From Candidatus Komeilibacteria bacterium RIFOXYD1_FULL_37_29 (GTDB taxonomy: Bacteria; Patescibacteriota; Patescibacteriia; UBA1558; GWA2-36-10), in the NCBI GenBank assembly GCA_001818495.1, contig MHKS01000005.1, forward strand, positions 250,038 through 314,037: a DNA stretch of 64,000 nt. The letters are read 5' to 3'. Each line of letters opens with the position of its first letter. The stretch's first letter is position 1. Of the stretch, positions 17,038-31,956 are shown piece by piece. The position numbers and the translations under genes are program-made. The notes below the pieces were generated by a model that did not search any database, had not been told where the DNA came from, and saw only the letters and a list, made by a program, of their open reading frames with translations.

Positions 17038-18837
17038 ATGAAAGTTACTAAAATTTTTAACGGGGCGAAAAAAATTATTCTTATTATTTTGGCCATAATT
17101 ACTTTGGTTATTCCCAGTTTGATTTTGGCAGACAATAATACCACCATTAGTTATTTAAAAGGACAAAATCAAAATGCCTGGATTAGTCAGGCTCTTACGG
17201 CTGCTTCAGTAGAAGAAGTGGATATTTCCTATCTAGACTATCAAACTACTGACTTGATGACAGCTGCTAAAAATATTTTGGTTTTAGCCGCTGTAAAATC
17301 TCCGGAAACAGTCAAAATAAATCAGCTAGTAGAAGTTATAGTTACTAGCAAAAATAATGGCCAATTTGGTTCAGTAGATTTATTAAATGATGATTTTTGG
17401 GCTATTTTAGCTTTGGCCTCAGTCAAGCATTTAGATAATACTCAAGATGTTAAAAATTTTATTTTAGAGCACCAAAACAGCGACGGTGGTTGGAGTTGGG
17501 CCAAAAATGGCGCCTCTGATAGCAACGACACAGCCGCCGCTATTATGGCTTTACTTGATTGGGGACTTACTAGCTCATCAACCGAGATCACCAGAGCTTT
17601 GGGTTATTTAAAGAGCGTTCAAAATGATGATGGTGGTTTTGCTTATGATATAGGTAGTCTATCTGATGGAGCTTCGACCGCTTGGATTATGGCGTCTTTA
17701 AATAAAGCAGAGATTAGCGCTAGTAGTTGGCAAAAAAATAATAATAACCCCGTAGCTTTTTTAGAAAATCTTAGACAAGATGACGGGTCATTTTTGTGGA
17801 TGCCGTCTGATGACCACGGTTCTAGTATGGTCACAGCTTATGCTTTATTAGCCCTAAGTGGCCAGAGCTATCCAGTAAATTATATAGACATAGGTACAGA
17901 AGACGAAGAACCGATTTCTGGTCATAGTTTGCGGATTGAAGGGCCAGAGGGCACTATTTGTTTGGCTAGTGGCTTACAGGCCCAAACAGTTTTGGATTTA
18001 TTGGAATTGGGCGCTGAGGTCTGTGATTTTGAATATGTGCTTCAAGACAGCTCTTATGGTACTTATGTTTCGGCTATTGGTGGCTTGAGTGGTCAGGGGA
18101 TGAATGGCTGGCAATATTTTGTCGATTGGCAACCGGCTATGGTAGCGGCTCCTGATTATATTTTAGAGGGTCATCAGGGTGTCTTGTGGGCTTATGGTGG
18201 TTGGCCTTTTTATCCGGTCAGAGTAGAAATAAATAATACCCGTTTTCAAACCGGAGATACTTTGCTAGCTAGTTTCAATTATTATGATGGAGAAAAGTGG
18301 CTACCGCTTGCCAGTCAAGCTGTGATTTTTGGTAGCGATACCTATCAAACAGATAATTTGGGTAAATTTATTTTTACTTTAAACACGGACGGCATTTGGC
18401 CGCTATTTTCTCAACAGTCCGATCAGTATGTTAGAAGTAATCGGGAGTATATTATTGTTGGTAGTGGAGTGTCTAAAGTAGTGGACTTATCAGTCAAAAT
18501 AGAATCTGGTAGTGGTGGAGTAGGTGATAATACTATTGCTTTTAGTATTGATAAATCTAGCATTGATTTTGGTACCTTAAAACCCGGCCAAGCAGCTGAC
18601 ACTATTGTTTCGCTGGTTAATACCGGCAATGTGGATATTCATATTGAAGCCAGTGTCTTGGGTGATCAGCTTTTTCAAAATTTTACTAGCTTAGATCAGA
18701 ATTTATGGGAAGATTATAATATAGCTTTGTCTAGCAGTGCTTCTCGTCCAGTCAATGTCGGATTGTCTGTCCCTACTACTTTTAATACCCCTGGTCAAAA
18801 GGCCGGTCAATTGATTTTTTGGGCCACTAGTCAATAA
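17038..18837 (+). CDS. Secreted/lipid-anchored transcobalamin-like cobalamin-binding protein. N-terminal alpha/alpha-toroid (prenyltransferase/squalene-cyclase-type) repeats, a DUF4430 (transcobalamin beta-domain-like) module, and C-terminal beta-rich domains.
   Basis: N-terminal signal/TM KKIILIILAIITLVIPSLILA. Repeats SDGGWSW, NDDGGFAY and QDDGSFLW typical of prenyltransferase-like alpha6/alpha6 barrels. The segment TVLDLLELGAEVCDFEYVLQDSSYGTYVSAIGGLSGQGMNGWQYFVDWQPAMVAAPDYILEGHQGVLWAYGGW aligns well by eye with the transcobalamin C-terminal beta-domain (recalled human TCII ...LLDVL...SWGPYITSVQGL...TYWELLSGGEPLSQGAGSYVVRNGENLEVRW). Preceded by a B12 riboswitch. Confidence 0.75.
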   Translation: MKVTKIFNGAKKIILIILAIITLVIPSLILADNNTTISYLKGQNQNAWISQALTAASVEEVDISYLDYQTTDLMTAAKNILVLAAVKSPETVKINQLVEVIVTSKNNGQFGSVDLLNDDFWAILALASVKHLDNTQDVKNFILEHQNSDGGWSWAKNGASDSNDTAAAIMALLDWGLTSSSTEITRALGYLKSVQNDDGGFAYDIGSLSDGASTAWIMASLNKAEISASSWQKNNNNPVAFLENLRQDDGSFLWMPSDDHGSSMVTAYALLALSGQSYPVNYIDIGTEDEEPISGHSLRIEGPEGTICLASGLQAQTVLDLLELGAEVCDFEYVLQDSSYGTYVSAIGGLSGQGMNGWQYFVDWQPAMVAAPDYILEGHQGVLWAYGGWPFYPVRVEINNTRFQTGDTLLASFNYYDGEKWLPLASQAVIFGSDTYQTDNLGKFIFTLNTDGIWPLFSQQSDQYVRSNREYIIVGSGVSKVVDLSVKIESGSGGVGDNTIAFSIDKSSIDFGTLKPGQAADTIVSLVNTGNVDIHIEASVLGDQLFQNFTSLDQNLWEDYNIALSSSASRPVNVGLSVPTTFNTPGQKAGQLIFWATSQ

Positions 18838-18839
18838 AT

Positions 18840-19406
18840 ATGCTAAAAATTTTCTCAGTTCTATTAGTCGTGTTGTTTGGACTACCTCTCACAGTCCAAG
18901 CCGTTGGTTTGTCTGTTTCGCCGTCTTCTCTGGATATTTTTTATCCGGATGTTTTAACACAAAAAATAAAAATACAAAATATTTCTAGTGAGCCTATAAA
19001 AATCTATGTGCGGGCTGATGATTTTTCAAAAGAGATTAGCTTAGAACCGTCGGAGTTTAATTTGTTACCCCAAGAGATTGCTCTGGTAAATATTTCAGCT
19101 GATTTTAAGCATTTATCAGCCGGTGTTAGAAAAACCAATATTTCTGTTTTGTCCCAAGCTCTAGATAAAAAGAGTTTCAATGCTATCTCTGGTATCAAGG
19201 TGCCAGTCAGTATTTATGTTACGGAAAGTTATTTCAAGTGGTCAGGACCAGCTGTCTTTGTCGTAGTGTTTTTGGGCTTGGGAGTTATTTTTATGCTTTG
19301 GTATTTATTGGTTTATATTTTCCGGCTTAAACCCAAGAAAAATAAATTAGCGGGTTTTAACTTTTTGTTACATCATAAGCGGAAAAAGTGGTATAAATGG
19401 TGGTAA
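18840..19406 (+). CDS. Hypothetical bitopic protein (signal peptide, beta-rich domain, C-terminal TM anchor with a basic tail). Probably co-transcribed with the B12-binding protein.
   Basis: Start is 3 nt after the upstream stop. N-terminal signal MLKIFSVLLVVLFGLPLTVQA. C-terminal TM VVVFLGLGVIFMLWYLLVYIF followed by RLKPKKNK. Confidence 0.5.
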   Translation: MLKIFSVLLVVLFGLPLTVQAVGLSVSPSSLDIFYPDVLTQKIKIQNISSEPIKIYVRADDFSKEISLEPSEFNLLPQEIALVNISADFKHLSAGVRKTNISVLSQALDKKSFNAISGIKVPVSIYVTESYFKWSGPAVFVVVFLGLGVIFMLWYLLVYIFRLKPKKNKLAGFNFLLHHKRKKWYKWW

Positions 19407-19426
19407 TTTGTTATGATATTTGGAGT

Positions 19427-19596
19427 AGGGAGAGGTAGCAGATCCCGCGTAGCGGGACCCCGCTTTGCGGGGGTGGTTTAGAAATAGTAAGTTGATAATT
19501 TCATTTAGTTTTGGAGAGGTGGCAGCTCCCGCGCAGCGGGACCCCGCTTTGCGGGGGTGGTTTAGAAATAGTAAGTTGATAATTTCATTTAGTTTT
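19427..19596. repeat. Two tandem copies of a roughly 84-bp unit, each beginning with the first 9 nt of the adjacent tRNA (GGAGAGGTG) and containing GC-rich hairpins (CCCGCgcaGCGGG; CCCCGCtttGCGGGG)
   Basis: Copy A is about 19430-19512 and copy B 19513-19596. They are roughly 92% identical and directly abut the 5' end of tRNA-Ser. Confidence 0.8.
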
Positions 19597-19686
19597 GGAG
19601 AGGTGCTAGAGTGGTTGAATAGGGTGCTCTCGAAAAGCACTAGTCCTGAAAGGGACTCGGGGGTTCAAATCCCTCCCTCTCCGCCA
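19597..19686 (+). tRNA. tRNA-Ser (anticodon CGA), type II with a long variable arm, 3' CCA encoded
   Basis: GGAGAGGTG...acceptor, with the pairing CCTCTCC-G-CCA at the 3' end. D-loop AGAGTGGTTGAA. Anticodon loop CTCGAAA. Long extra arm. T-arm GGTTCAAATCC. Confidence 0.85.
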
Positions 19687-20035
19687 TCCTTCGCTAAAGC
19701 TACGGAATGACTAGCCATATGTTATATTATACTTACATTTTATTAAGCTCAAAATCTCATATTTTTTATTTTGGTTCAACGAATAATTTAAAAAATAGAT
19801 TGGAGCTGCATAATAGCGGCAAGGTAACATCAACTAAATCGCATATACCTTGGAAATTAGTTTGGTATTGTGTATTTGAAACGGAAAAACAGGCAAGAGA
19901 TTTTGAGCTTTATTTAAAAACAGGGTCAGGAAAATCTTTTGCTTATAAAAGACTTATTTCCGTGGCTTTAGAGAAGGATTTCAGGGAAGGGAGAATAGGT
20001 AGTCCGAAGCGGAAGCCTTAGCTTTTGCGAAGGAT
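19687..20035. mobile_element. 349-bp GIY-YIG mini-element inserted at the 3' end of tRNA-Ser. It is bounded by 16-bp imperfect terminal inverted repeats (TCCTTCGCTAAAGCTA / TAGCTTTTGCGAAGGA) and flanked by a 16-bp direct repeat of the tRNA 3' end (CCCTCCCTCTCCGCCA at 19671-19686; ACCTCCCTCTCCGCCA at 20036-20051).
   Basis: Repeats are read directly. TIR match is 15/16 and DR match 15/16. The only gene inside is the GIY-YIG ORF. Confidence 0.6.
19707..20021 (+). CDS. GIY-YIG nuclease-domain protein (YhbQ/Slx1-like, UPF0213 family)
   Basis: YYTYILLSSKSHIFYFGSTNNLKNRLELHN...TK...PWKLVWYCVFETEKQARDFELYLK matches the GIY-YIG core (GIY / YIG / R / E / N). Confidence 0.8.
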   Translation: MTSHMLYYTYILLSSKSHIFYFGSTNNLKNRLELHNSGKVTSTKSHIPWKLVWYCVFETEKQARDFELYLKTGSGKSFAYKRLISVALEKDFREGRIGSPKRKP

Positions 20036-20190
20036 ACCTCCCTCTCCGCCAGATTACCAAGTTTGAACCCAAGCAAAATAAGGGTTTTGTGCTATTGAAA
20101 AGCCGGTGTCCGAATAAGGTGCTGATTTTTTAAAATCCTTATCAAATGAGTAAATTTTTGGTAAAATAGAGTTAATAAGAATAGAATTAT

Positions 20191-22020
20191 ATGTCTAAAA
20201 AAATTGATTACGACAACTGGTCAAAAGATGAGATAATCAAGGAGATTAGGCGAATCAAAGAAACTACATACGGACTTGTGTGGCATCGCGACTTACCTGA
20301 GGAAAAAATTGATATTCTTATAAACCCAGATGCTCGGACTCCAAATGAAATGTTCCCTAACGAAATGGCGGGCAAGCCATTTCCAGTTTTGAAAGAGGCA
20401 AAAACAAAAACAATTGAGACTGATAAAAATAAGCCGACAAATATTTTGATTGAGGGTGATAATTATCATTCTCTTGCCGTTTTGAATTTTACTCATCAAG
20501 AAGCAATTGATTTGATTTACATTGATCCGCCTTACAATACTGGCCACAACGATTTTGTTTACAATGATAAAATTAAAAGCGGTTATGTTGTTAAAGATGA
20601 TCCATTTAGGCATAGTAAATGGATTTCTTTCATGGAAAAAAGGTTAAAACTCGCAAAAAATTTATTGAAATCGTCGGGTGTTATTTTTATTAGTATTGAC
20701 GACAATGAATTTGCTCCATTAAAAATGCTGTGTGACGAGATTTTTGATGAAAGTAATTTCATCTCTATGTTGTCAATTGAAAATAATCCTAAGGGACGGA
20801 AAAACTCCGATTTTATATCTATTTGTAATGATTATTGTCTTATATACGCTAAAGACAAAGGTAAAAGTTATTTTGTTGAAAATATTCCCAAACAAGCTGA
20901 CGACTTAACGATTGATGATAATGGAGACTATGTACACAATAGCGGCAAACGGGTCCTTGTTGGAGAAAATAAATTTAATCCGCTTGTAGAAGATTTTGAA
21001 TCAGCTAAGCATTATAGTGTTTATTACAATCAGACTGATAATAAAATTAAAATAGAGGTGGAAAAAAATATTCACGAGGCAAACAAAGATTTATTAAAAA
21101 ACGGATATAAAAGATACTATTCTTATTTTGGAGACAGATTTGTCTTGAATACTTATACAAAATCAAAAATCATAGAGCTTTTCGAAGATGAGGCTCTCGA
21201 ATTCAAAAATGGGAGTATATATGAAAAAAATTTCAGCACAACAATTAGACTAAAAAGTCTTGTTATCAATAAAAAATATGAGGCAGTAATAAATAATGAA
21301 AAAGCAGAATATCAAATAGATGTTAAAACGACTTCAGCGAAGACTGAATTAAAGGATATTTTCAACACTGACCAAATTCCATTTGATAACCCCAAGAATA
21401 TTGGTTTGATAAAATTATTGGTAACATTATTTGAAAATAAATCAATAACTATTTTAGATTTTTTTGCAGGATCGGGAACGACCGGGCATGCAGTCCTTGG
21501 TCAAAATAAAGAAGATGGAGGAAATCGACAATTTATTCTGTGCACGAATAATGAAAATAATATATGCACTGATATCTGCTATCCCCGTCTTGGAAAAGTT
21601 ATAAAGGGATATAAAAATTCAAGAAATGAAAAAATTGATGGTTTGGGTGGAAACCTGAGATATTTTACTGCTTATGACTTTGTAGAAGCTAAGGAAACAG
21701 ATAGAAACAAAAGAAAACTAGTAAACCAATCAACAGAAATGCTTTGCATTAAGGAAAATGCTTTTGAGCTTGTGCAAGAAGTTGAAGATTATAAAATCTT
21801 CAAGAATCATGATAAATATTTGGGAATTATTTTTCATGAAGATTCTATATCGGACTATGTCAAAGCAATAAAAAAGATAAAAGGACACTTTAATACTTAT
21901 ACATTTTCAATGACGGATGATCCTCACAAAGAGGAATTTACTGATGTTGCGGACAAAGTAACTCTTTGTGCAATTCCAGAAATGATTTTGAAAGTATATC
22001 ATGAGATTTTCAAGGAATAA
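20191..22020 (+). CDS. mod: Type III restriction-modification system, Mod subunit (N6-adenine DNA methyltransferase)
   Basis: Motif IV DPPY within LIYIDPPYNTGHNDFVYND. Motif I FFAGSGTTGHAV. 609 aa. Overlaps res by 20 nt. Confidence 0.85.
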   Translation: MSKKIDYDNWSKDEIIKEIRRIKETTYGLVWHRDLPEEKIDILINPDARTPNEMFPNEMAGKPFPVLKEAKTKTIETDKNKPTNILIEGDNYHSLAVLNFTHQEAIDLIYIDPPYNTGHNDFVYNDKIKSGYVVKDDPFRHSKWISFMEKRLKLAKNLLKSSGVIFISIDDNEFAPLKMLCDEIFDESNFISMLSIENNPKGRKNSDFISICNDYCLIYAKDKGKSYFVENIPKQADDLTIDDNGDYVHNSGKRVLVGENKFNPLVEDFESAKHYSVYYNQTDNKIKIEVEKNIHEANKDLLKNGYKRYYSYFGDRFVLNTYTKSKIIELFEDEALEFKNGSIYEKNFSTTIRLKSLVINKKYEAVINNEKAEYQIDVKTTSAKTELKDIFNTDQIPFDNPKNIGLIKLLVTLFENKSITILDFFAGSGTTGHAVLGQNKEDGGNRQFILCTNNENNICTDICYPRLGKVIKGYKNSRNEKIDGLGGNLRYFTAYDFVEAKETDRNKRKLVNQSTEMLCIKENAFELVQEVEDYKIFKNHDKYLGIIFHEDSISDYVKAIKKIKGHFNTYTFSMTDDPHKEEFTDVADKVTLCAIPEMILKVYHEIFKE

Positions 22021-24262
22021 TTATATGTCATGGATTAATTTTAAAAATTATCAAGAAACTGCAATCGATGAAATACGCGACAAGATTAATGCCCTGCTCA
22101 AAAAAGAGGGTAATAGACTTTGCGTATTCAAAGCTCCGACTGGTTCGGGGAAAACTTTAATGATGGCGGAATGGATGATGAGGTTTTGTGACCCATATTC
22201 GCGAATTGATGGGAAAACTTTTTCTTTTGTATGGATAGCAGTAAATAAATTACATGATCAAAGCCATGACAGTTTAAAAAAGTTTTATGAGCTCAAAGGA
22301 GCGGGGCTTCGTTGTTCATATTTTCACGAACTTGAGGATAGAAAAATAAAACAGAACGAGATTTTATTTTTGAATTGGGCAAGTATCAATAATGAAGACA
22401 AGATTATTGTTCGCGCGAATGAAAGAGATAATAATCTCTCAACAATAATTGATCGGACCAAAGATGCCAGTCGGACAATTATTTTGATTATCGACGAAAG
22501 CCACCATACCGCAAAAAGTAAAAATTCAAAGGCTTTAATAAAAAATATTGACCCTAAAATTACGATCGAGGTTTCTGCTACACCAGAAATTTTTGATTTT
22601 GATGAGCGGGTAACCATTGATATTGAGGATGTACGAAGCGAGGAAATGATAAAGAAAGAAATTGTAGTGAACCCTGGCTTCAAAAATTACACAGTTGATC
22701 CAAAAAAGAACGATCAAACAGCAGACGAATTAATCTTGAAGTCTGCTTTGCAAAAAAGGATTGATTTGCGAAAAAAATTAGAAAAAGATGGTTCAAATGT
22801 CAATCCCTTATTACTTATTCAATTACCGGATACAAAAAAAGGAGTTCCTGATAAAAAAGAGGAGATTGAAACACTTCTTGCTAAATTTGGCTATACAACA
22901 AAAAATGGAAAGTTGGCTGTCTATCTTTCTGAAAAAGATAACAAAATAAATCTTGCTAATATTGAGAAAAATGAAAACGAAGTGGAGGTAATGATGTTCA
23001 AGCAAGCGATTGCACTTGGTTGGGATTGTCCAAGAGCTACAATTCTTGTGCTTTTCCGTCAATGGAAAGATGAAACGATAACATTCTCAATCCAAACATT
23101 GGGAAGAATCATGCGTATGCCTGAGCAAAAACATTATAAAGATCAAGAGTTGAATATTGCTTATCTTTATACTAGTTTACAAGACATTAATACTCGTATT
23201 TTGAAAGGTGCTTCGTCGGGAATAAAATCTCTTACGAGTTATCGCAATGAGAAATATAAAAATATTGACCTAATTTCATATCACTCAAAACGATTCCGTG
23301 AGGAAACTCGTTTGTCTTCTGATTTTGTGAAAATTTTTATCGAAGCCGCTAAAAAAACAAATTTAAAAGATGTTTCGCTAAAAGTCGGGATTGTGAAAAC
23401 AACAATGATCAAAGATGGACGCGTGGAAAATGCGGATAAAGAAATAACAAAGATTGAAAGTGATACTTTTTCTATACCCAAAACAGAGACGGAGCTGCAA
23501 TATACTTTTGATATGTTTGTGCTTGATAATCTTGATCCGTTTGAACATGAAGCCCGTTCTATAAAACGCATAAACGATTCAATTTATACTTTCTTTGGCG
23601 CACGACGCAAAGAAGATGAATGGCCTAAAATACAAGCCACGATACTTTCGTATGAAAAGAATCGCCAAGCTGTAATTGATGCTATTAATCTAGCAAAAGA
23701 TTTATATAAAACCGAAGTTGGAAAAGGCAAAAAAGAACTGATACAAAATGATGAGCCGTGGAATGTGCCAGAAGCTATTAATTTTGATCCGTCATTTGTA
23801 GAGCAAAATTATAAAAAATCTATAATGCAACCATATTACGCTCGTTCTCGGGATGGAGAAAACGGACGATTGTTTGAGGACAGTGAAATTGAAAATGATT
23901 TTATTAAATACCTAGAAAAAGCACAGAAAGTTGTTTGGTGGTTCAGAAATGGGAAACAAGACGGATCATTTTTTGCTGTCCCGCACATTGAACACGGACA
24001 AGAAAAGCCGTTTTATGTTGATTTTATAGTTATGATGAAAAATGGAACTGTTGGGCTTTTTGATACAAAATCAGGATATACTGCCGAACTAGCAAAATCT
24101 CGCTCTGATGGACTTGTAAAATATATTAATGAGCAGAAAAAGAAAAAAATTACTGGCGGAATTGTGAGATACGAAAAGAAAAGTTGGCTATATTTTACTA
24201 ACAAAGAATATAAATATAATCCGAATGATATAAAGGATTGGGAATTTTTGGATTTGAATTAA
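22001..24262 (+). CDS. res: Type III restriction enzyme, Res subunit (SF2 helicase-nuclease)
   Basis: Walker A FKAPTGSGKT. DEAH box IIDESHH. 753 aa. Translationally coupled to mod. Confidence 0.85.
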   Translation: MRFSRNNYMSWINFKNYQETAIDEIRDKINALLKKEGNRLCVFKAPTGSGKTLMMAEWMMRFCDPYSRIDGKTFSFVWIAVNKLHDQSHDSLKKFYELKGAGLRCSYFHELEDRKIKQNEILFLNWASINNEDKIIVRANERDNNLSTIIDRTKDASRTIILIIDESHHTAKSKNSKALIKNIDPKITIEVSATPEIFDFDERVTIDIEDVRSEEMIKKEIVVNPGFKNYTVDPKKNDQTADELILKSALQKRIDLRKKLEKDGSNVNPLLLIQLPDTKKGVPDKKEEIETLLAKFGYTTKNGKLAVYLSEKDNKINLANIEKNENEVEVMMFKQAIALGWDCPRATILVLFRQWKDETITFSIQTLGRIMRMPEQKHYKDQELNIAYLYTSLQDINTRILKGASSGIKSLTSYRNEKYKNIDLISYHSKRFREETRLSSDFVKIFIEAAKKTNLKDVSLKVGIVKTTMIKDGRVENADKEITKIESDTFSIPKTETELQYTFDMFVLDNLDPFEHEARSIKRINDSIYTFFGARRKEDEWPKIQATILSYEKNRQAVIDAINLAKDLYKTEVGKGKKELIQNDEPWNVPEAINFDPSFVEQNYKKSIMQPYYARSRDGENGRLFEDSEIENDFIKYLEKAQKVVWWFRNGKQDGSFFAVPHIEHGQEKPFYVDFIVMMKNGTVGLFDTKSGYTAELAKSRSDGLVKYINEQKKKKITGGIVRYEKKSWLYFTNKEYKYNPNDIKDWEFLDLN

Positions 24263-24265
24263 ATT

Positions 24266-25450
24266 ATGGCATTAGAATCAGAAAAATTGGAAGAAAAAAT
24301 AGTTGATAATTATTTTACTGATACTCTATATAGTAGTCGGGAATTTAAGGGTGGAGTAGGTAAATTTTTTACAATAGTATCTCAGGATGAAAATGATATC
24401 CCAAATGTAGTTGATGTTGAGCATTCGTATCCTATACGCAATAAAATAAAGACAACGCTGACATTTATCAAAAAAGAAAACGAAATTACAGCCATTTCCT
24501 TTAAGCGTTTTAAATATTATAAAAAAGAACATTGGGTTGAACAACCAGAAGAACAGATTACTTTTTCATACAGTCTTTTTAAAAAAATTATTGGGTATTT
24601 ACAGTTACTATCAGAATTAAATTTGTCGGCTATTAGTGAGCGAAGAATTGCTTTAGCCGATGACACATTACCGAATATTGACGATGAAACAAAAAAGAAG
24701 ATTAAAACATTGCTTTTACGCAAAGATGGGCAAAAAATTATTGAGGAATTAATAAATAGCGGAATAATTACATCAACCGATATTGTAAATATCGGGTATC
24801 GAAAAAAACAACTTGATGTTTTTGAGAAGCTCCTGACACAACCCGATTATTTTGCAACCTATATAACTGAAAGTAAAATTACAGATACTCGTCATGAGTC
24901 TGTTTGGCAACATTTCTTCCATTCTAATGATTGGATTTTTGGATATGGACTAGATTATCGCTTTCTTGGCATCCTGCAAAAAGAAGCTCATATTTCAAAT
25001 ACAGACGTCGCAGGAAAAGGGGCTGTTATAAATGATTTTCTACTCGGGTGCAATAAATTCACCGTTTTGGTTGAATTAAAAAAACACGACACACCATTAT
25101 TTGGAAAAGACAAAAACCGGTCAAACTCTTGGACACTTTCAGATGATTTAATATCTGGTCTATCTCAAATATTAGAGCAAAAAGCTAGTTGGCAGGTTTC
25201 GGCCGAGACAAATGCAAGTGGAAATTTTGACGATAAGGGTAATTTGATAAAACAAAAAACTATCGATCCAAAAAGTATCTTAGTTATCGGATCAACAAAG
25301 CAATTTGATGGTGATGATAAAGAAAATCAAATTAAAGCAAAAACCTTTGAACTTTTTAGACGAGATTCAAGAAATATAGAAATTCTTACTTATGACGAAC
25401 TGTATGAGAGAGCGAAGTTTATTGTTGAACATAAACAGAAAGACAACTAG
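24266..25450 (+). CDS. Putative defense-associated PD-(D/E)xK nuclease, Shedu (SduA/DUF4263)-like
   Basis: 394 aa. Core AVINDFLLGCNKFTVLVELKK gives D...ELK, a PD-(D/E)xK signature. C-terminal KSILVIGST...IEILTYDELYERA resembles DUF4263 ends. Immediately downstream of Type III R-M. Confidence 0.4.
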   Translation: MALESEKLEEKIVDNYFTDTLYSSREFKGGVGKFFTIVSQDENDIPNVVDVEHSYPIRNKIKTTLTFIKKENEITAISFKRFKYYKKEHWVEQPEEQITFSYSLFKKIIGYLQLLSELNLSAISERRIALADDTLPNIDDETKKKIKTLLLRKDGQKIIEELINSGIITSTDIVNIGYRKKQLDVFEKLLTQPDYFATYITESKITDTRHESVWQHFFHSNDWIFGYGLDYRFLGILQKEAHISNTDVAGKGAVINDFLLGCNKFTVLVELKKHDTPLFGKDKNRSNSWTLSDDLISGLSQILEQKASWQVSAETNASGNFDDKGNLIKQKTIDPKSILVIGSTKQFDGDDKENQIKAKTFELFRRDSRNIEILTYDELYERAKFIVEHKQKDN

Positions 25451-25793
25451 GTTTAAATAGAATAATCCACCTCATTTTTGCTCTTATCTGATTTTAGCTT
25501 CGGTGTCTCAAACCATTCTGGATGAACCTTGAACATAGCCCTTAATTCGCGTATACTTTTATCAATATCCTTAAATTTGAACCACTTTTTTGGTTCAAAC
25601 TTCGGGACATCGCCACCGCCACTCGATTCGCATTTTGCTTCGCAAAAAGCTCACTCGTGATCTACGGTGCTAAAGCACCTTCGACCATTCTAATTCTAGA
25701 ATCGAGTGTATTGAGCGAGCGTAGCGAGTCGAAAGGCACGCGCTATCGTGCTAGCATAAGTGTATTAAAAAATTTCTATATAGTTATTAAAAT

Positions 25794-26387
25794 ATGGATC
25801 AACAAACAATCAATACATACAACAGGATGTCACAAGAGTATGATGATGAAACAGCTGATTTTTGGGAGCGATTTCCTCGAACATTTCTTGATAAATTTAT
25901 TAAGCTATCCGGTAATAAAATACTTGATGTTGGGAGCGGACCAGGTAGAGATGGTTTGATACTTCAACAGGCCGGTAAAAATGTTGTCTGTGTGGATGCT
26001 TCTGCAGCAATGGTGAAATTGTCTTCAGACAGAGGTTTAAACTCTATAGTAGCCAGTTTCGACAATTTACCATTTGAAAATAATTCATTTGACGGCGTAT
26101 GGTCATATACTGCTCTTTTACATATTCCCAAAAAATCTATCGATACCCCTCTTCAAGAGATTTTTCGTATTATCAAACCTTCAGGTATTTTTGCTCTTGG
26201 TCTGATTGAAGGGGACACAGAAGGATACAAAGAAAGCTCTGAAGTGACTATGCCTCGTTGGTTTAGTTTCTATCAGAAAGACGAAGTTGAAAATTTATGC
26301 CAAAAGCACGGATTTGAGCTGGTTTACTTTGAGACTTTTAAACCAGGGTCCAAGCCCTATTTGAATTTTATTTTTCGAAAAATATAA
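25794..26387 (+). CDS. Class I SAM-dependent methyltransferase (Methyltransf_11-like)
   Basis: Motif I KILDVGSGPGRDGL. Acidic motif II VVCVDAS. 197 aa. Confidence 0.75.
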   Translation: MDQQTINTYNRMSQEYDDETADFWERFPRTFLDKFIKLSGNKILDVGSGPGRDGLILQQAGKNVVCVDASAAMVKLSSDRGLNSIVASFDNLPFENNSFDGVWSYTALLHIPKKSIDTPLQEIFRIIKPSGIFALGLIEGDTEGYKESSEVTMPRWFSFYQKDEVENLCQKHGFELVYFETFKPGSKPYLNFIFRKI

Positions 26388-26416
26388 TACTACTAGAACA
26401 TTTTTATCTATCTCAA

Positions 26417-26665
26417 TTTTCACTGTCTTTTCAGGCAGTTTTTTGGTATAATCAAAGCATTAATTAATAAAAATATTATGATTGACGAAGAAATAAAGCA
26501 AATTATTCAGGAAAATAAGGACACTTTGGCTAATATTGATAAAAGGATTGGTCGGATTGAGAAAAATTTTATTTGGAGTTCAATTTTTGGTTTTATAAAG
26601 ATTGTTATTATTGTAGCACCGATTGTTTTTGGTATTATTTATTTTACGCCATTTTTGAAAGATTT
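26417..26665. repeat. Left copy of a roughly 250-bp direct repeat (about 95% identical to 33399..33648). It carries an extended -10 promoter (TTTTGGTATAAT) and the 5' part of a small membrane-protein gene.
   Basis: Direct sequence comparison. Shared sequence runs from TTTTCACTGTCTTTTCAGGCAGTTTTTTGGTATAATCAAAG through ...TTTACGCCATTTTT. Confidence 0.9.
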
Positions 26666-26690
26666 AAATAAATTGGGTATTATTACATAA
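26478..26690 (+). CDS. Small membrane protein (70 aa). A truncated paralog/duplicate of 33461..33811.
   Basis: MIDEEIKQIIQENKDTLANIDKRIGRIEKNFIWSSIFGFIKIVII... is near-identical to the N-terminus of the 33461 ORF. It diverges where the DNA repeat ends. Confidence 0.6.
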   Translation: MIDEEIKQIIQENKDTLANIDKRIGRIEKNFIWSSIFGFIKIVIIVAPIVFGIIYFTPFLKDLNKLGIIT

Positions 26691-26707
26691 TTAAGAAATG
26701 GTAGTAT

Positions 26708-28426
26708 ATGAAAAAGTCAAAAGTCATATTAGGGATTACTGCCTTTAATCATGATTCTTCGGCGTGCTTAATTTATCAAGGTAGAGTAATTGCATTTTGT
26801 GAGGAGGAAAGATTCAATGGCATAAAACATACCGGAGATTTTCCGATAAAATCAATTTTATTTTGTTTAGAAAAAGCTGGTTTGTCATTAAATGATGTGA
26901 CTGATGTAGCTTTTTATTTTAATATTAAAAAATGTTTATTGAGTTATATAAAGAACAATAATCCACTCTATTATATTATTCATCCATCTTTATTTAAGAG
27001 GAAAAGATTTTATTATGAAATTATTTGGTTATTTAGTTTTATAAACAAAATTAATTCAATTAAAAAACTCCTTAATAATTATAAGATAAAGATTACTTAT
27101 GTAGATCATCATATGGCGCACGCTTGGTATGGGTATTTTTCTTCAAATTTTAAAAATTGCACGGTAGTTTCTAATGACAGCGTAGGCGAGAGTGTGAGTA
27201 GTTTAGCCGTAAAGATACAGAGAGAAGATAAAAAAATTATTTTTGGTAAGACATTCAGTCAAACAGACCCTCACTCTATTGGGTATTTGTATGGTGCTAT
27301 AACTGAATTTTTAGGATTCAAAAGAGGTCAAGACGAAGGAAAGGTTATGGCTATGGCGGCTTTAGGGAAAGATAAATATGTAAAATATTTTGATGACTTG
27401 ATTAGATATTTACCTAATGGGGAATTTAGAATAAGTAAGGAGTTGATTTCCTTACGTAATTTTCAGCCAAAATCACAAAGATTAAGCAATGATTTTTTAA
27501 AAAAATTTGGATATTATCGTCAACCCCAAGAACCATTTATCCAAAAGCATTATGATATTGCTTATGCAATACAAGGGGTAACGGAAAAAATTTTATATCA
27601 CCAATTAAAATATATTAATGATGATAATATAGTCATTACTGGTGGTATTGCTCAAAATAGTGTAGCCAACGGGAAACTCAACAATTTTTTTTATAAAAGA
27701 AATATATTTATTCCTCCGATTCCTAATGATGCCGGGTGTGGTATTGGCGCGGCGCTTTCTTTATATTATAAGTATTATGAAGATTTACCAGAGTTTGTGG
27801 ATACTGCGTTTTTAGGCCCAGAATTTTCTGATCATAAAATCATTAAAACATTAGAAAATAATAAAATAAATTTTAAAATTATAAAAAATCAGACGGAATT
27901 CATTATTAATGAGCTTTTGAAAAATAAGATTATCGCTATATATAGAAATGAGATGGAGTGTGGTCCTAGGGCATTAGGTAATAGGAGTATAATAGCCAAT
28001 CCAATTGATCCGGCGATGAAGAATTACATCAATGAAAAAATAAAACACCGTGAATTTTTTCAGCCATACGGCGGGTTGATTATTGATAAAAATGTTAAAG
28101 AAGTATTTGATTATAAGAATAAAAATATTTCCGGACCATATATGTCTTTTGTTTATCCAATTAAAGATAAATGGTTAAAAATGTTTCCATCTTTGGTTCA
28201 TTTTGATAAAACTTCTAGAATTCAAATAATAAAGAAGGAACAAAATTTTTTATATAGTCTCTTGGAAGAATTTTATAAAAAAACAGGTGTCCCCGTAATT
28301 ATAAATACTTCCCTTAATTTAAGAGGGCAGCCTATGGCAAGAAGCCATCAAGATGCTTTAAACACATTTTATAATTCGGGGATTCATTATATTTTATTTA
28401 ATAACAGTATTCTAGTTTCAAAATGA
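26708..28426 (+). CDS. NodU/CmcH-family carbamoyltransferase
   Basis: N-terminal KVILGITAFNHDSSACLIYQGRVIAFCEEERFNGIKHTGDFP matches the carbamoyltransferase N-domain (compare TobZ/NodU ...LG...HD.AAAL..DG.I.AA.EEERF.R.KH). A DHHMAHAWYGYF metal-binding motif is present. 572 aa. Confidence 0.85.
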   Translation: MKKSKVILGITAFNHDSSACLIYQGRVIAFCEEERFNGIKHTGDFPIKSILFCLEKAGLSLNDVTDVAFYFNIKKCLLSYIKNNNPLYYIIHPSLFKRKRFYYEIIWLFSFINKINSIKKLLNNYKIKITYVDHHMAHAWYGYFSSNFKNCTVVSNDSVGESVSSLAVKIQREDKKIIFGKTFSQTDPHSIGYLYGAITEFLGFKRGQDEGKVMAMAALGKDKYVKYFDDLIRYLPNGEFRISKELISLRNFQPKSQRLSNDFLKKFGYYRQPQEPFIQKHYDIAYAIQGVTEKILYHQLKYINDDNIVITGGIAQNSVANGKLNNFFYKRNIFIPPIPNDAGCGIGAALSLYYKYYEDLPEFVDTAFLGPEFSDHKIIKTLENNKINFKIIKNQTEFIINELLKNKIIAIYRNEMECGPRALGNRSIIANPIDPAMKNYINEKIKHREFFQPYGGLIIDKNVKEVFDYKNKNISGPYMSFVYPIKDKWLKMFPSLVHFDKTSRIQIIKKEQNFLYSLLEEFYKKTGVPVIINTSLNLRGQPMARSHQDALNTFYNSGIHYILFNNSILVSK

Positions 28427-29247
28427 TTAAAGATTTTCAAAAGATAGAGTTTTTAAAATCACTTTACAGTGATAAAGACTTAATATCGTTTCGTGGCAAT
28501 TTTTTAAAAAATAATTCCAACCGTAAATTCTCATTAAGATCTTTTATTATTAAACTTTTGCCGATGCTAAAGGATAAAAAAATATTAGACATTGGTTGCG
28601 GAGACGGGTCATTCCTCAATAAATTACATACGGTATATCCTCAAAATAAATATTTTGGTTTGGATGTAGTAGATAATGCTAAATGCCATAAATTGAAATT
28701 TCTTGACTACAAAATTTATGATGGTAAATCCAGGGTTTATTATACGGAAAAATTTGATGTGATATTTTGTATGCACACTGTTTATCATATCGAAGATTTA
28801 TTCACTTTTTTTACAACGATGAAAGACTATTTAAAGCCCCATGGCATTATTATCATTACTACGAAGTCTAAATTGACTTTTCCTAAAATAGAATCAATCT
28901 TTTTAAAGATTGTCGGTAAGCTTGACTTAAAAAAATATTTAAAAATTAGCAAACACAGAGAGGAATCAAAATTTTGTTTGGAGAACGGATTAAACAGATT
29001 AAAAAAACACTTCGCTAGGCGGTCATTTAGTATAAATGAGTATGTTTTAGAAACGCAGGTTTTTGTTAATGACAAAAAAGATCTTTTGAAATATGTTTTT
29101 TCTACAAATAGATATAATATTTTGAAAGATACTTTAAACAAAAAAATTGTTGAAAAATATACAAAACTTTGGTTTGAAGAAATTGATAAAGATCAGATAT
29201 TCATTGATAAATATACGGAGGCTGTTTATTTAATAAAAAAATTATGA
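28423..29247 (+). CDS. SAM-dependent methyltransferase
   Basis: Motif I KILDIGCGDGSFLNKL. D-x motif KYFGLDVVD. Start overlaps the upstream stop by 4 nt. Confidence 0.7.
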   Translation: MIKDFQKIEFLKSLYSDKDLISFRGNFLKNNSNRKFSLRSFIIKLLPMLKDKKILDIGCGDGSFLNKLHTVYPQNKYFGLDVVDNAKCHKLKFLDYKIYDGKSRVYYTEKFDVIFCMHTVYHIEDLFTFFTTMKDYLKPHGIIIITTKSKLTFPKIESIFLKIVGKLDLKKYLKISKHREESKFCLENGLNRLKKHFARRSFSINEYVLETQVFVNDKKDLLKYVFSTNRYNILKDTLNKKIVEKYTKLWFEEIDKDQIFIDKYTEAVYLIKKL

Positions 29248-30311: not shown

Positions 30312-31074
30312 TAAAAATAAATCTTTAGAAATTGTAATTGATTCTAAACACTATATTAAAAAAAGATATTCTGATATCCAACGTTTTTTTTGTGAATTAA
30401 AATATCTTAAATATTTTAAAGATGAAGATATCAATGTTCCTTTTATATATAAATTTGATAAAATCCAAAAAACAATAATAATAGATAAAATAAAGGGGAA
30501 AATCGGCGATTCATTAAATAATAGAGACACAAAACTATGCATTGATGTGCTTGTCAAAATAATTTTTATTTTTGGTTTGGAAAAGAAAAATAATAATGAA
30601 ATTGATAGGTATATTTCAAAAGTCAGGTCAAATATAATATGGTGGTGTGAAAATAATAATTATATAGTAGAAAAAGAAAAATTAAATATTTTACTTCAAA
30701 AGTTAAGAAAAGTGTGTTATATATCTTTATTCAAAGATGCCAAACCATCTAATTGGATTTTTCAAAAAGATAAAATATACGCAATAGACTTTGATTATGT
30801 AAAAAAATCATTTTTTTTAGCAGATTTAGCACAACTTTTAAGTTATATTTCATTAAGGAAAAAAATAAGTTATATTTTCTTTGTAAATTATTATCTAAAG
30901 CAAATATTCCCAAAAATGAAGGATTATGATAAATTTTATATACCTTTTAAATTAGCGCTTGTTAATTCCAACATTGCTTCTGAACTTCACAGAGAGAATT
31001 TAGGAGCCTATGTAAAAAGGGGTTTTGCCAAACAAAACAGGTTTATTTTGAGTGAATTTAAGATAATATTATAA
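30295..31074 (+). CDS. Atypical protein-kinase-like (Kdo/WaaP/RIO-type) small-molecule kinase
   Basis: Catalytic-loop-like FKDAKPSNWIF (D-x-K-P-x-N) and a metal-binding IYAIDFDYV (DFD) motif. 259 aa. Confidence 0.4.
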   Translation: MVDSGNKNKSLEIVIDSKHYIKKRYSDIQRFFCELKYLKYFKDEDINVPFIYKFDKIQKTIIIDKIKGKIGDSLNNRDTKLCIDVLVKIIFIFGLEKKNNNEIDRYISKVRSNIIWWCENNNYIVEKEKLNILLQKLRKVCYISLFKDAKPSNWIFQKDKIYAIDFDYVKKSFFLADLAQLLSYISLRKKISYIFFVNYYLKQIFPKMKDYDKFYIPFKLALVNSNIASELHRENLGAYVKRGFAKQNRFILSEFKIIL

Positions 31075-31955: not shown

Positions 31956-31956
31956 A

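What the first reader, a model, noticed from the sequence alone, without database searches (positions are those of the whole stretch)
19671..20051. Miniature GIY-YIG element inserted at the tRNA-Ser 3' end, with 16-bp TIRs and a 16-bp duplication of the tRNA terminus
The tRNA 3' end including CCA (CCCTCCCTCTCCGCCA) is repeated 350 bp downstream (ACCTCCCTCTCCGCCA). Immediately inside these direct repeats lie inverted repeats TCCTTCGCTAAAGCTA and TAGCTTTTGCGAAGGA. The only cargo is a 104-aa GIY-YIG nuclease. This is the signature of a site-specific insertion (attL/attR-like, or a target duplication) and not a static yhbQ-like gene. It could be a minimal GIY-YIG homing-type or tRNA-targeting mobile element.
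Basis: seen in the sequence. Interest (0 to 1): 0.65.

Follow-up and report, generated by a model that had tools for sequence, protein, structure and literature searches.

The report
Tiny tRNA-targeting nuclease mobile element
A 352-bp piece of selfish DNA that carries only a 100-amino-acid nuclease gene sits directly after a serine tRNA gene. About 45 related loci show that it belongs to a family I could not find described. The family inserts at the same nucleotide of many different tRNA genes, duplicates 14 bases of the tRNA end, and carries an internal stretch that can base-pair with that target.

Summary
tRNA-Ser(CGA) (19597-19686) is followed by a 352-bp unit (19685-20036). The unit is flanked by a duplicated tRNA 3' segment (19672-19684 and 20037-20049) and by 20-nt inverted ends. 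It encodes one intact 100-aa GIY-YIG nuclease of the Slx1/UPF0213 clade.

The same unit lies in the same orientation directly after Gln, Ser, Asn, Trp and Leu-derived tRNA 3' ends in many Patescibacteria (candidate phyla radiation, CPR) lineages. It always follows tRNA nt 74. It is always flanked by a 13-14-nt repeat of that host's own nt 61-74 (26 cases, 22 different repeat sequences).

Orthologous ftsX-tRNA-Gln loci are either filled or cleanly empty. The ORF is under strong purifying selection (dN/dS about 0.13).

Two structures on the sense strand are supported by covariation: a 16-bp helix between the left end and codons 82-88, and a right-end hairpin.

One finding is new. The 20-25 nt between these two structures (codons 88-95) is complementary to each element's own duplicated tRNA segment (permutation p < 5e-5; confirmed on 3 of 3 held-out elements).

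Best reading: a new family of site-specific mobile elements driven by a minimal structure-specific nuclease, possibly guided by base pairing. The mechanism is inferred, not shown.

The parts
19597..19686 (+). tRNA-Ser(CGA), the target gene. It is left intact by the insertion. G73 = 19683, C74 = 19684.
   Evidence: ARAGORN. Rfam tRNA, 52.1 bits.
19671..19684 (+). Left copy of the duplicated target (T_left) = tRNA nt 61-74, CCCTCCCTCTCCGC (T-stem 3' strand + acceptor 3' strand + discriminator + 1).
   Evidence: The same tRNA positions are duplicated in 26 elements.
19685..20036 (+). The inserted element: 352 bp, from the variable first base N (C here) through ...GGATA.
   Evidence: Boundaries come from the 23-element alignment A1 and the direct-repeat script.
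19686..19707 (+). Left end L: ATCCTTCGCTAAAGCTACGGAA. It is an imperfect palindrome and forms the 5' arm of the long-range helix.
   Evidence: 0 mismatches to the family consensus. L-I helix.
19719..20021 (+). GIY-YIG nuclease ORF (100 aa; an alternative ATG lies at 19707). The stop codon TAG is at 20019-20021, inside the right-end structure.
   Evidence: Pfam PF01541, E = 1.5e-16. Start taken from alignment. AlphaFold2 model, pLDDT 84. Foldseek matches to UPF0213 and Slx1. dN/dS about 0.13.
19958..19979 (+). Internal site I: TTCCGTGGCTTTAGAGAAGGAT. It is the reverse complement of L and lies in codons 81-87 (SVALEKD). It forms the 3' arm of the long-range helix.
   Evidence: I2, D4. 16-bp helix with 97% of cells paired and 4 compensatory pairs.
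19980..19997 (+). Segment S: TTCAGGGAAGGGAGAATA (codons 88-93). It is complementary to the duplicated tRNA segment; GGGAAGGGAG pairs with CTCCCTCTCC.
   Evidence: Own-versus-cross duplex energies and permutation tests. The sliding-window control confines the signal to this segment. Hold-out test.
19998..20037 (+). Right-end hairpin R: GGTAGTCCGAAG - variable loop/module - GCGAAGGATAC. Its last pair uses the first C of the right target copy.
   Evidence: helices 2 and 3; the upper stem covaries: CG 12 / UA 7. The GGT AGT CCG codons show no synonymous variation.
20037..20049 (+). Right copy of the duplicated target (T_right), CCTCCCTCTCCGC. It is followed by the native CA of the CCA end (20050-20051).
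20104..20135 (+). Terminator-like hairpin plus T-run. It is the probable end of a tRNA-nuclease co-transcript (inference).
   Evidence: No promoter-like site lies between the tRNA and the ORF start.

Best explanation
**What it is.** This is one copy of a family of very small (336-435 bp) site-specific mobile elements of Patescibacteria. I found no description of the family.

**Where it inserts.**
- Each element inserts, always co-oriented with the gene, between nt 74 and 75 of a tRNA gene.
- The targets almost always have G73-C74: Gln, Ser, Asn and Trp, with one Leu-derived end.
- Insertion duplicates nt 61-74, so the tRNA stays intact.

**What it carries.**
- The only gene is a nuclease of about 100 aa. 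It is a bare GIY-YIG catalytic domain of the Slx1/UPF0213 (structure-specific endonuclease) clade, plus a 20-aa tail.
- The gene fills the element. Its 3' codons double as nucleic-acid signals:
  - site I pairs with the left end L;
  - hairpin R closes the right end and contains the stop codon;
  - segment S, between I and R, is complementary to the duplicated tRNA segment.

**Proposed mechanism (inferred).**
1. The nuclease is probably made from read-through of the tRNA promoter.
2. It acts on branched or hairpin structures formed by L/I, S and R on the sense strand, as ssDNA or as RNA paired to DNA.
3. It cuts the target at the two edges of the 14-nt segment (60/61 and 74/75).
4. Repair or fill-in then gives the 14-bp duplication.
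5. S-to-target pairing contributes to choosing or re-finding the tRNA site.

**Shown:** the anatomy, the insertion footprint, presence/absence at orthologous sites, purifying selection, the covarying structures, and S-target complementarity.

**Inferred:** that the GIY-YIG protein is the mobility enzyme, the cut positions, whether the structures act as DNA or RNA, and the role of S.
For: **Footprint**
- The 13-14-nt direct repeat always starts right after the T-loop and ends at discriminator + 1.
- It is seen in 23 elements: 15 exact, 7 with one mismatch, 1 with two. None of 500 shuffles matched as well.
- Three held-out elements all have 14/14 repeats.
- There are 19 distinct repeat sequences among the 24 canonical elements scored, and 22 with the 3 held-out ones. 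Each matches its own host tRNA.

**Orientation**
- All 22 adjacent tRNAs found by ARAGORN are on the ORF's strand.

**Empty versus filled orthologous sites**
- By FtsX identity the two states are interleaved.
- L036 carries a different L subtype from L017 and L023 at the same tRNA. That indicates independent insertions.

**Conserved ends**
- Alignment A1.

**Selection on the ORF**
- 21 of 22 ORFs are intact. Median pS is 0.70, pN is 0.19, and dN/dS is about 0.13.
- Y6, Y17, R27, H31 and E63 are invariant in 33 homologues.
- Fold matches are to Slx1 (30-36% identity, rmsd 2-2.5 A) and UPF0213, far better than to I-TevI.

**Structures**
- 96.9% of cells are paired, against 34-44% when the partners are slid.
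- 9 pairs carry compensatory changes, against 4.2 +/- 1.1 in shuffles (0 of 500 reach 9).
- The A32>T change is compensated in I but not within L itself, which favours the L-I helix over an L self-hairpin.

**S-target complementarity**
- Own duplex energy is -11.5 kcal/mol, against -9.4 for other elements' targets.
- Permutation p < 5e-5 with one representative per target type.
- The signal is confined to alignment columns 335-378.
- 3 of 3 held-out elements rank their own target first of 20.

**No other mobility gene**
- No integrase or transposase was found in the adjacent 14 kb.
Against: **Recent movement**
- There is no direct sign of recent movement. The window holds one copy.
- P0100 occupies one fixed context in all contigs read.
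- The closest element pairs still have dS >= 0.8.
- No identical element was seen at two sites.

**This copy**
- No empty site was found for this tRNA-Ser.

**Enzymology**
- GIY-YIG enzymes are hydrolytic nucleases. None is known to do strand transfer or to make long staggered cuts (my own knowledge).

**Target site after insertion**
- The filled site keeps the T-loop plus nt 61-74 intact. The usual homing logic, in which insertion destroys the recognition site, therefore does not obviously apply.

**Limits of the S signal**
- S-target pairing is imperfect (4-11 pairs) and poor in about a quarter of elements (L014, L016, L025, L036).
- It cannot be assigned to the left or the right copy.

**Non-canonical loci**
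- About 10 of 41 loci have non-matching flanks, which I interpret as rearranged.

**Unknowns**
- Whether the structures act in DNA or RNA is unknown.
- ORF-less derivatives and copy number per genome were not surveyed.
Confidence: 0.7

Rival explanations
1. Non-autonomous passenger. The inverted ends and the 14-bp duplication are made by a transposase or integrase acting in trans, for example a casposase-like or DDE enzyme encoded elsewhere. The GIY-YIG gene is cargo, serving for example as an addiction, defence or repair function.
For: - Long fixed target duplications next to tRNA 3' ends are known for Cas1-driven casposons. Their TSD median is 15 nt, and some overlap the last 4-7 nt of tRNA genes.
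- GIY-YIG nucleases act as non-essential accessories in Tsy transposons.
- No GIY-YIG transposase is known (my own knowledge).
Against: - Every element found carries the nuclease, and it is under strong purifying selection.
- The end signals I, S and R, and the stop codon, are embedded in its coding sequence. Gene and ends therefore cannot be separated.
- No transposase or integrase lies in the flanks examined.
- The family spans many CPR phyla with tiny genomes.
- Caveat: all loci were found by searching with the protein, so ORF-less copies would have been missed.
Confidence: 0.12
2. Cis-acting RNA device on a long-resident, domesticated gene. Ancient insertions are now fixed. L/I, R and S-T pairing serve the tRNA-mRNA co-transcript, for example in stability, RNase III or RNase Z processing, or translational control of the nuclease. 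The right-hand repeat is kept by selection for pairing with S, not by recent insertion.
For: - Structures are supported on the sense strand. G-U cells outnumber non-pairs by 15 to 10 in L-I, and there are 14 G-U among 177 S-T pairs.
- The arrangement is strictly co-oriented with the tRNA.
- No promoter-like site lies between the tRNA and the ORF, and a terminator-like site lies downstream.
- One fixed copy per population.
- Elements show saturated dS, yet their repeats are nearly perfect.
- The whole-transcript fold has z = -5.4.
Against: - The repeats are identical to the host tRNA even at positions that S does not pair with: nt 1-2 and 13-14 are rarely paired.
- Filled and empty states are interleaved among close relatives.
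- Different element subtypes sit at the same tRNA.
- Related elements sit at different tRNAs: the window's closest relative among the loci compared is in tRNA-Trp.
- This reading explains how the structures are maintained. It does not explain the origin of 22 different exact duplications.
Confidence: 0.12
3. Remnant of a tyrosine/serine-integrase island. The direct repeat would be an attL/attR core left by an element integrated at the tRNA, and the nuclease gene the last surviving cargo.
For: - tRNA 3' ends are classic integrase targets.
- The window's tRNA sits at the edge of a lineage-specific region of about 14 kb.
- L025, L061 and L065 show other small inserts and extra tRNA 3' fragments nearby.
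Against: - The same conserved 340-bp unit abuts at least 8 different tRNA species.
- The repeat has a fixed length of 13-14 nt and is always host-specific. An attP core would be constant for an element family.
- There is no integrase in the island.
- No further copy of the repeat occurs in the window.
Confidence: 0.03
4. Intron-like RNA element. The segment from T_left through R would be removed from the precursor RNA, joining nt 60 to the right-hand copy, with S-T pairing playing an EBS/IBS-like role (exon-binding/intron-binding site pairing, as in group II introns).
For: - In the structure (T_left+L)/(I+S) plus R, nt 60 and nt 61' are brought together at a three-way junction. This geometry is inferred.
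- The right copy often keeps the native GCCA, while the left copy has GC(A/T)A.
Against: - There is no Rfam intron or ribozyme match.
- The element is almost entirely ORF, with no room for a ribozyme core.
- The upstream copy already completes a normal tRNA, so splicing is unnecessary.
Confidence: 0.03

Closest known systems
Free-standing GIY-YIG homing endonuclease genes (T4 Seg family, e.g. SegB in the tRNA gene cluster; I-TevI)
   Same: - A small selfish unit whose only gene is a GIY-YIG nuclease.
- SegB acts in a tRNA gene region (abstract of PMC13096335).
- The catalytic Tyr/Tyr/Arg/His/Glu set is conserved.
   Different: - There is no DNA-binding domain: 100 aa, with only PF01541 matched.
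- The fold is closer to Slx1/UPF0213 than to I-TevI.
- The element has inverted structured ends and a 14-bp target duplication, which homing does not produce.
- The host is cellular Patescibacteria, not phage: there is no phage or IMG/VR match.
Casposons (Cas1-solo self-synthesising transposons)
   Same: - Terminal inverted repeats.
- Target duplications with a median of 15 nt.
- Some insert at the 3' end of tRNA genes without damaging them.
   Different: - No Cas1 and no PolB.
- Size is 0.35 kb, not about 8-20 kb.
- A different enzyme class.
- An internal segment complementary to the target.
IS200/IS605 family (IS608 TnpA)
   Same: - Very small elements with subterminal imperfect hairpins.
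- Strictly oriented insertion next to a specific flank.
- The flank or cleavage site is recognised by base pairing with an internal guide just 5' of the hairpin foot (my own knowledge: Barabas et al. 2008). Here S lies 3 nt 5' of hairpin R, and the target copy lies 3' of it.
   Different: - The enzyme is GIY-YIG, not an HUH Y1 transposase.
- IS200/IS605 elements make no target duplication.
- The complementary segment here is about 10 nt rather than 4 nt, and it is coding.
OMEGA systems (TnpB/IscB with right-end-derived guide RNA) and IS110 bridge RNAs
   Same: - A structured region overlaps the 3' end of the element's gene and its right end.
- That region is directly followed by target-derived sequence.
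- An element-encoded nucleic acid is complementary to the target. OMEGA review: PMC13565253.
   Different: - No RuvC or DEDD protein.
- The nuclease is 4-10 times smaller.
- No evidence yet that any RNA is bound or used as a guide.
Slx1 / bacterial UPF0213 (YhbQ-like) structure-specific nucleases
   Same: These are the best sequence and fold matches: 1zg2, 1ywl, 6seh/6sei, 7cq2, 4xm5.
   Different: - Those are host repair proteins or uncharacterised proteins, not known to be mobile.
- This subfamily has a specific C-terminal tail encoded by the I/S/R signals. Only 5 representative clusters score E <= 1e-30, against 5,854 at E <= 1e-3.
GIY-YIG-encoding 'insertion sequences' in CPR rRNA genes (Tsurumaki et al. 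2024, PMC11270868); accessory GIY-YIG nuclease of Tsy transposons (PMC10293859)
   Same: - CPR hosts, with GIY-YIG ORFs in non-intron insertions inside structured-RNA genes.
- A GIY-YIG nuclease that boosts a transposon.
   Different: - The rRNA inserts were not analysed for ends or duplications. Whether they belong to the same family was not tested here.
- Tsy moves by tyrosine recombinases, which are absent here.

Membership tests
GIY-YIG nuclease superfamily (Pfam PF01541) | Profile match above the curated cut-off | tested here: met
   60.9 bits against a cut-off of 22.6; E = 1.5e-16.
GIY-YIG nuclease superfamily (Pfam PF01541) | Conserved catalytic residues: GIY Tyr, YIG Tyr, Arg, His, Glu | tested here: met
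   Y6, Y17, R27, H31 and E63 are invariant in 33 homologues and in the 21 element ORFs. Equivalence to I-TevI Y6/Y17/R27/H31/E75 rests on my own knowledge.
GIY-YIG nuclease superfamily (Pfam PF01541) | GIY-YIG alpha/beta fold | tested here: met
   AlphaFold2 model with pLDDT 84. Foldseek matches to Slx1 and UPF0213 at probability 1.00.
Classical GIY-YIG homing endonuclease (I-TevI / Seg type) | Separate C-terminal DNA-binding module (NUMOD, IENR1 or HTH) | tested here: not met
   The protein is 100 aa, and Pfam matches only residues 7-76. The tail is one helix plus a low-confidence end.
Classical GIY-YIG homing endonuclease (I-TevI / Seg type) | Insertion without target duplication, spread by double-strand-break repair between alleles | tested here: not met
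   A 13-14-nt host-specific duplication flanks 26 elements. Homing between identical alleles is not excluded.
Bacterial insertion sequence / transposon (generic) | Terminal inverted repeats | tested here: met
   20 nt at 90% in the window. The ends are conserved family-wide.
Bacterial insertion sequence / transposon (generic) | Target-site duplication of fixed length | tested here: met
   13-14 nt in all canonical copies.
Bacterial insertion sequence / transposon (generic) | Empty and filled orthologous sites | tested here: met
   L017, L023 and L036 are filled; L055, L057 and L058 are empty.
Bacterial insertion sequence / transposon (generic) | Transposase of a known class (DDE, DEDD, HUH, Ser, Tyr, Cas1) | tested here: not met
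   The only ORF is GIY-YIG. NCBIfam gives no hit. No recombinase lies in the flanks.
Bacterial insertion sequence / transposon (generic) | Several copies per genome, or identical copies at different sites | tested here: inconclusive
   One copy in the 64-kb window. One locus per GTDB genome, but the search was limited to close relatives. P0100 has a single context. Chimeric flanks in about 10 loci hint at recombination between copies.
IS200/IS605 | HUH Y1 TnpA; no target duplication | tested here: not met
   No HUH protein is present, and a duplication is present.
IS200/IS605 | Subterminal hairpins, with flank recognition by internal base pairing | tested here: inconclusive
   The hairpins and S-target complementarity are shown statistically. 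Their function is untested.
Casposon | Cas1 integrase and PolB | tested here: not met
   Both are absent from the element and from the neighbourhood.
Integrase-mediated island with tRNA att repeats | Integrase gene, and an att core constant for the element family | tested here: not met
   There is no integrase. The repeat differs with each host tRNA.
Group I / II intron or other Rfam RNA | Covariance-model match | tested here: not met
   Only the tRNA is found in 18500-21000 at E <= 1.

The most novel reading that the evidence does not exclude
The element may be a nucleic-acid-guided mobile element run by a GIY-YIG nuclease of about 100 aa.

A sequence carried by the element would base-pair with the 3' part of the tRNA gene. 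Two candidates exist:
- segment S, complementary to tRNA nt about 63-72 on the sense strand;
- or, as in OMEGA systems, the target copy transcribed just 3' of hairpin R.

This pairing would create the branched substrate that the Slx1-like nuclease cuts at both edges of the 14-nt duplex. Target choice would then be programmable and would co-evolve with the host tRNA.

If true, this would be a new transposition/homing chemistry and the smallest guided nuclease known.
Probability: 0.2. Interest if true: 0.95.

Novelty: new variant of a known kind. Interest (0 to 1): 0.8.

Why it matters
**Size and enzymology**
- If the 100-aa nuclease is sufficient for mobility, these would be the smallest protein-coding mobile elements known to me, smaller than IS200.
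- They would also be the first elements known to me in which a GIY-YIG enzyme, rather than a DDE, HUH, Ser, Tyr or Cas1 enzyme, underlies insertion with a target duplication.

**The target-complementary segment**
- The internal coding segment tracks the host tRNA sequence.
- This gives a directly testable hypothesis of base-pair-guided target choice by a minimal nuclease, which is of interest for genome-engineering tools.

**CPR biology**
- The family explains a very common, so far uninterpreted class of 'GIY-YIG nuclease family protein' genes next to tRNAs in CPR genomes.
- It also explains tRNA 3'-fragment duplications that confuse annotation.

Tried and rejected
**Searches that found nothing**
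- Rfam scan of 18500-21000 at E <= 1: only the tRNA. No intron, ribozyme or known motif.
- Rfam on 15 loci with odd left flanks: nothing at the junctions. LOOT RNA lies elsewhere in L026 and L033.
- Phage DNA collection and IMG/VR: no relatives.
- NCBIfam: no named family. PHROGs: one weak hit of unknown function.
- Literature: 9 searches, 8 of which ran (one search was rejected for a malformed term). No description of tRNA-3'-end GIY-YIG mini-elements, YhbQ or UPF0213.

**Empty site for this tRNA-Ser**
- I looked through orthologues of the upstream 599-aa gene. The relatives lack the tRNA and 14 kb around it, so this was uninformative for this copy.

**False leads**
- A left-end-like 15-mer at L047:10466-10490 turned out to be the loop of an unrelated hairpin, and the corresponding window region has no insert.
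- P0100 (119 index blocks): I hoped for the same protein in several contexts, but found one context only.

**Tests that could not resolve the question**
- In-register (ungapped) pairing of S with the left flank: own and cross scores barely differ (6.96 against 6.62 pairs), because the offsets vary. Gapped duplex energies were needed.
- Left versus right target copy as the partner of S, using the 8 elements whose copies differ: no discrimination.

**Explanations rejected**
- Integrase att-site explanation: the repeat is host-specific and there is no integrase.
- Chance explanation for the direct repeat: expectation 0.07.
Full report
**1. The observation**

The window comes from a Candidatus Komeilibacteria (Patescibacteria, candidate phyla radiation = CPR) genome. 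The ORF product is identical to a protein of RIFOXYC1_FULL_37_11.

- tRNA-Ser(CGA) lies at 19597-19686.
- CCTCCCTCTCCGCCA occurs only at 19672-19686 and 20037-20051. The chance expectation is 0.07.
- Directly inside these repeats lie inverted arms at 19686-19705 and 20016-20035, 20 nt and 90% complementary.
- ORF 19707-20021 is a GIY-YIG domain protein, E = 1.5e-16.
- A third copy of the inverted motif lies inside the ORF. Positions 19958-19990 pair with 19675-19707 over 33 nt at 79%.

**2. The arrangement is a family trait**

A protein search returned more than 540 clusters at 72-88% identity from many CPR phyla. A scan of GTDB species genomes gave 38 loci, all from different assemblies.

- In 22 loci ARAGORN finds a tRNA on the same strand, ending 25-60 nt before the ORF. 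The tRNAs are Gln(TTG, CTG), Ser(CGA, GCT, GGA), Asn and Trp. None lies on the other strand.
- The flanks read: tRNA...T-loop | 14 nt | N-ATCCTTCGC(T/C)AA(A/G)GCTACGGAAT... ORF ...GGTAGTCCGAAG-(variable)-CG(A/T)AGGATA | the same 14 nt.
- A script that takes the 14 nt before the left end and searches downstream found 0-2 mismatches in 23 elements. Fifteen were exact, and no shuffle of 500 did as well.
- The repeat always begins at the first base after the T-loop (tRNA nt 61) and ends one base past the discriminator (nt 74).
- It has 19 different sequences among the 24 canonical elements, each equal to its host's own tRNA end.
- All but one of the targets have G73-C74. Unoccupied tRNAs in the same loci mostly have A73.

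In the window the repeat is 13 of 14 nt. The further 'CA' identity is coincidental: the left CA is the element's N-A start, and the right CA is the native CCA.

**3. Empty sites**

The window's nearest relatives are L047 and L049, at 65% identity in the upstream gene. They are collinear up to window 19400 and resume at 33457. They therefore lack the tRNA, the element and about 14 kb, and are uninformative for this copy.

The synteny group prfB-ftsE-ftsX-tRNA-Gln(CTG) gives the answer.

- L017, L023 and L036 are filled.
- L055, L057 and L058 have one uninterrupted ...CCAAGCCCCGCAG(C)... followed by unrelated sequence.
- L056 has a different small GIY-YIG gene at the same position without a duplication.
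- By FtsX identity, filled L017 groups with empty L055 (72%). Both sit nearer the empty L057/L058 pair than filled L023 does.
- L036 carries another left-end subtype than L017 and L023, so this site was hit more than once.

**4. The protein**

- The likely start is 19719, giving 100 aa.
- 21 of 22 element ORFs are intact. L042 has an early stop.
- Median pS is 0.70, pN is 0.19 and dN/dS is about 0.13. Even the closest pairs have dS >= 0.8.
- Y6, Y17, R27, H31 and E63 are invariant.
- Sequence and predicted-fold searches hit UPF0213 proteins and the Slx1 nuclease domain (30-36% identity, rmsd 2-2.5 A). I-TevI scores much worse, at E about 0.7.
- In a library of 1.84 billion representatives, 5,854 proteins match at E <= 1e-3 but only 5 at E <= 1e-30. 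The broader hits stop at about residue 80. The C-terminal tail therefore marks a tight subfamily.

**5. Structured ends**

RNAalifold on the 23-element alignment predicts two structures.

- A 16-bp long-range helix joins the left end L to an internal site I (codons about 81-87).
- A hairpin R forms from GGTAGTCC...GGATAC(C). It includes the first base of the right repeat, and in most elements the TAG stop codon.

On these 25 pairs:

| Measure | Observed | Control |
|---|---|---|
| Cells paired | 96.9% | 34-44% when partners are slid |
| Pairs with compensatory changes | 9 | 4.2 +/- 1.1 in shuffles (0 of 500 reach 9) |

- The A>T change in L of L015, L038 and L044 is compensated in I but not within L's own palindrome. 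This favours L-I pairing.
- The codons GGT-AGT-CCG and GAT87 show no synonymous variation at all. This indicates constraint at the nucleotide level.
- G-U cells exceed non-pairs (15 against 10), which points to the sense strand, as RNA or as top-strand ssDNA.

**6. A target-complementary segment (new)**

The window's 33-nt inverted repeat runs from L into the tRNA. I therefore asked whether the segment after I (called S; codons about 88-95, 'DF..GR..') is complementary to each element's own repeat.

- It is. The mean duplex energy is -11.5 kcal/mol for an element's own target and -9.4 for other elements' targets. Permutation p < 2e-4.
- With one representative per repeat type (19 types), p < 5e-5, and 6 elements have their own target as the unique best.
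- A sliding-window control shows the effect only at alignment columns 335-378 (difference -2.2 kcal/mol). Everywhere else the difference stays between -0.42 and +0.72.
- Pairing involves repeat nt 3-12 and the Gly91-Arg92 codons. Their synonymous choices follow the target:
  - GGC-AGA with CTGCC
  - GGT-AGA with CTACC
  - GGG-AGA with CTCCC
  - GGG-AAG-GA with TCCTTCCC

As a hold-out I fetched five more proteins' loci after fixing the test.

- Three were canonical: L061, L065 and L066. All have exact 14/14 repeats.
- In all three, S ranks its own target first of 20. By my calculation the chance of this is about 1e-4.

Whether S pairs with the left or the right copy cannot be told.

**7. Interpretation**

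- Twenty-two different, almost undecayed host-specific duplications argue for repeated site-specific insertion. Five to nine mismatches in 322 nt contrast with synonymous saturation between elements.
- A passive relic could not have tracked each host's tRNA sequence.
- The only protein available is a bare structure-specific-type nuclease. Its gene is interwoven with the end signals.
- S sits 3 nt 5' of the R hairpin foot, and the target copy sits 3' of it. This resembles the guide/cleavage-site layout of IS608 (my own knowledge).
- If (T_left+L) pairs with (I+S), nt 60 and nt 61' meet at a three-way junction. These are the bases that must be joined for precise excision. This is my inference.

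I therefore favour an autonomous element whose nuclease acts on element-formed branched structures, with base pairing helping to find the tRNA end. I hold this mechanism at moderate confidence only.

Rivals are listed separately: mobilisation in trans by an unknown recombinase, a purely cis-RNA role on a domesticated gene, integrase att remnants, and an intron-like element. The first two remain live.

**8. Known relatives and novelty**

The element shares single features with several known systems:

- Seg-type homing endonuclease genes
- casposons
- IS200/IS605
- OMEGA and bridge-RNA systems
- Tsy
- the unexplained GIY-YIG inserts of CPR rRNA genes

It meets the defining set of none of them (see the membership table). 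Eight full-text searches that ran found no description (one search failed).

I rate it a new variant, meaning a new family, of site-specific mobile element. There is a 20% chance that it is something categorically new: a base-pair-guided GIY-YIG transposition or homing system.

Noticed in passing
window 19429-19596: Two tandem 84-bp units (96% identical) lie directly upstream of the tRNA. Each starts with the tRNA's first 9 nt (GGAGAGGTG). Two GC-rich hairpins follow (CCCGCGCAGCGGG, CCCCGCTTTGCGGGG), then the AT-rich tRNA upstream region. A strain variant (L001) has only one unit. L066 shows an analogous 20-nt duplication of the tRNA-Asn 5' end around a 37-nt insert. A second kind of small insert may target tRNA 5' ends.
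   Followed up: partly
window 19407-33399: About 14 kb is absent from the nearest relatives (L047, L049), which are collinear on both sides. The region contains the tRNA and element, a type III-like restriction-modification pair (N6_N4_Mtase + ResIII/DEAD), a Shedu SduA_C protein, methyltransferases, a carbamoyltransferase, a thymidylate-synthase-like protein and a dCMP deaminase. It has no integrase. It looks like a defence/nucleotide-modification island next to the tRNA.
   Followed up: partly
window 26417-26665 and 33400-33648: A 249-nt direct repeat (96%) spaced 6,983 bp apart duplicates the promoter and 5' part of the gene at 33457. It brackets the carbamoyltransferase-to-deaminase block. 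This suggests a second insertion with a long target duplication, or a recombination scar.
   Followed up: no
L056:2491-2811: A different small GIY-YIG subfamily gene (MYFIYILENTKCKLYIGFT...) starts right after the same position of tRNA-Gln(CTG). It has another leader sequence, and no second copy of the tRNA end within 1.1 kb. tRNA 3' ends may host several GIY-YIG lineages.
   Followed up: partly
L036:2303-2355; L020:3382-3410: A second, solo left end (about 40 nt, identical to the first) follows directly after the right-hand repeat. It could be a tandem or abortive second insertion, or the product of unequal recombination.
   Followed up: no
L009, L013 (right repeat); L012, L019, L025, L038, L061 (right end): The right end often carries one to four tandem extra copies of a roughly 15-30-nt 'CCGAAG...GAAGGAT' module. 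In L009 and L013 such a module splits the right-hand repeat. The right end seems prone to slippage or repeated partial events.
   Followed up: no
L025:2772-2955; L061:~340-520: A conserved insert of about 130-170 nt (containing GGAYTCGAACAGGARAGGGGT) lies between an RNA gene's 3' end and a second copy of the T-loop plus 3' end, just upstream of the GIY-YIG element. It appears to be another small element stacked at the same site.
   Followed up: no
L037:2926-3000; L065:~505-575: The loop of the left-end hairpin carries an insertion of about 36 nt (GTCGCTTACGCTTCCGTAGCTTCAGGGACGGAGCG-like) in two unrelated loci.
   Followed up: no
L011, L012, L018, L020, L022, L026, L027, L033, L059, L063: These elements have a left flank that does not match the right-hand tRNA-like repeat. 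No tRNA or Rfam RNA lies upstream. The pattern is consistent with rearrangement between copies, but it is unexplained.
   Followed up: partly
L026:2670-2790 (-); L033:4611-4737 (-): LOOT RNA genes (Rfam RF03000; 84 and 72 bits) lie within 0.2-1.5 kb of the elements in two loci.
   Followed up: no
window 77-10813: A single 3,578-aa ORF opens the window. It was not examined.
   Followed up: no
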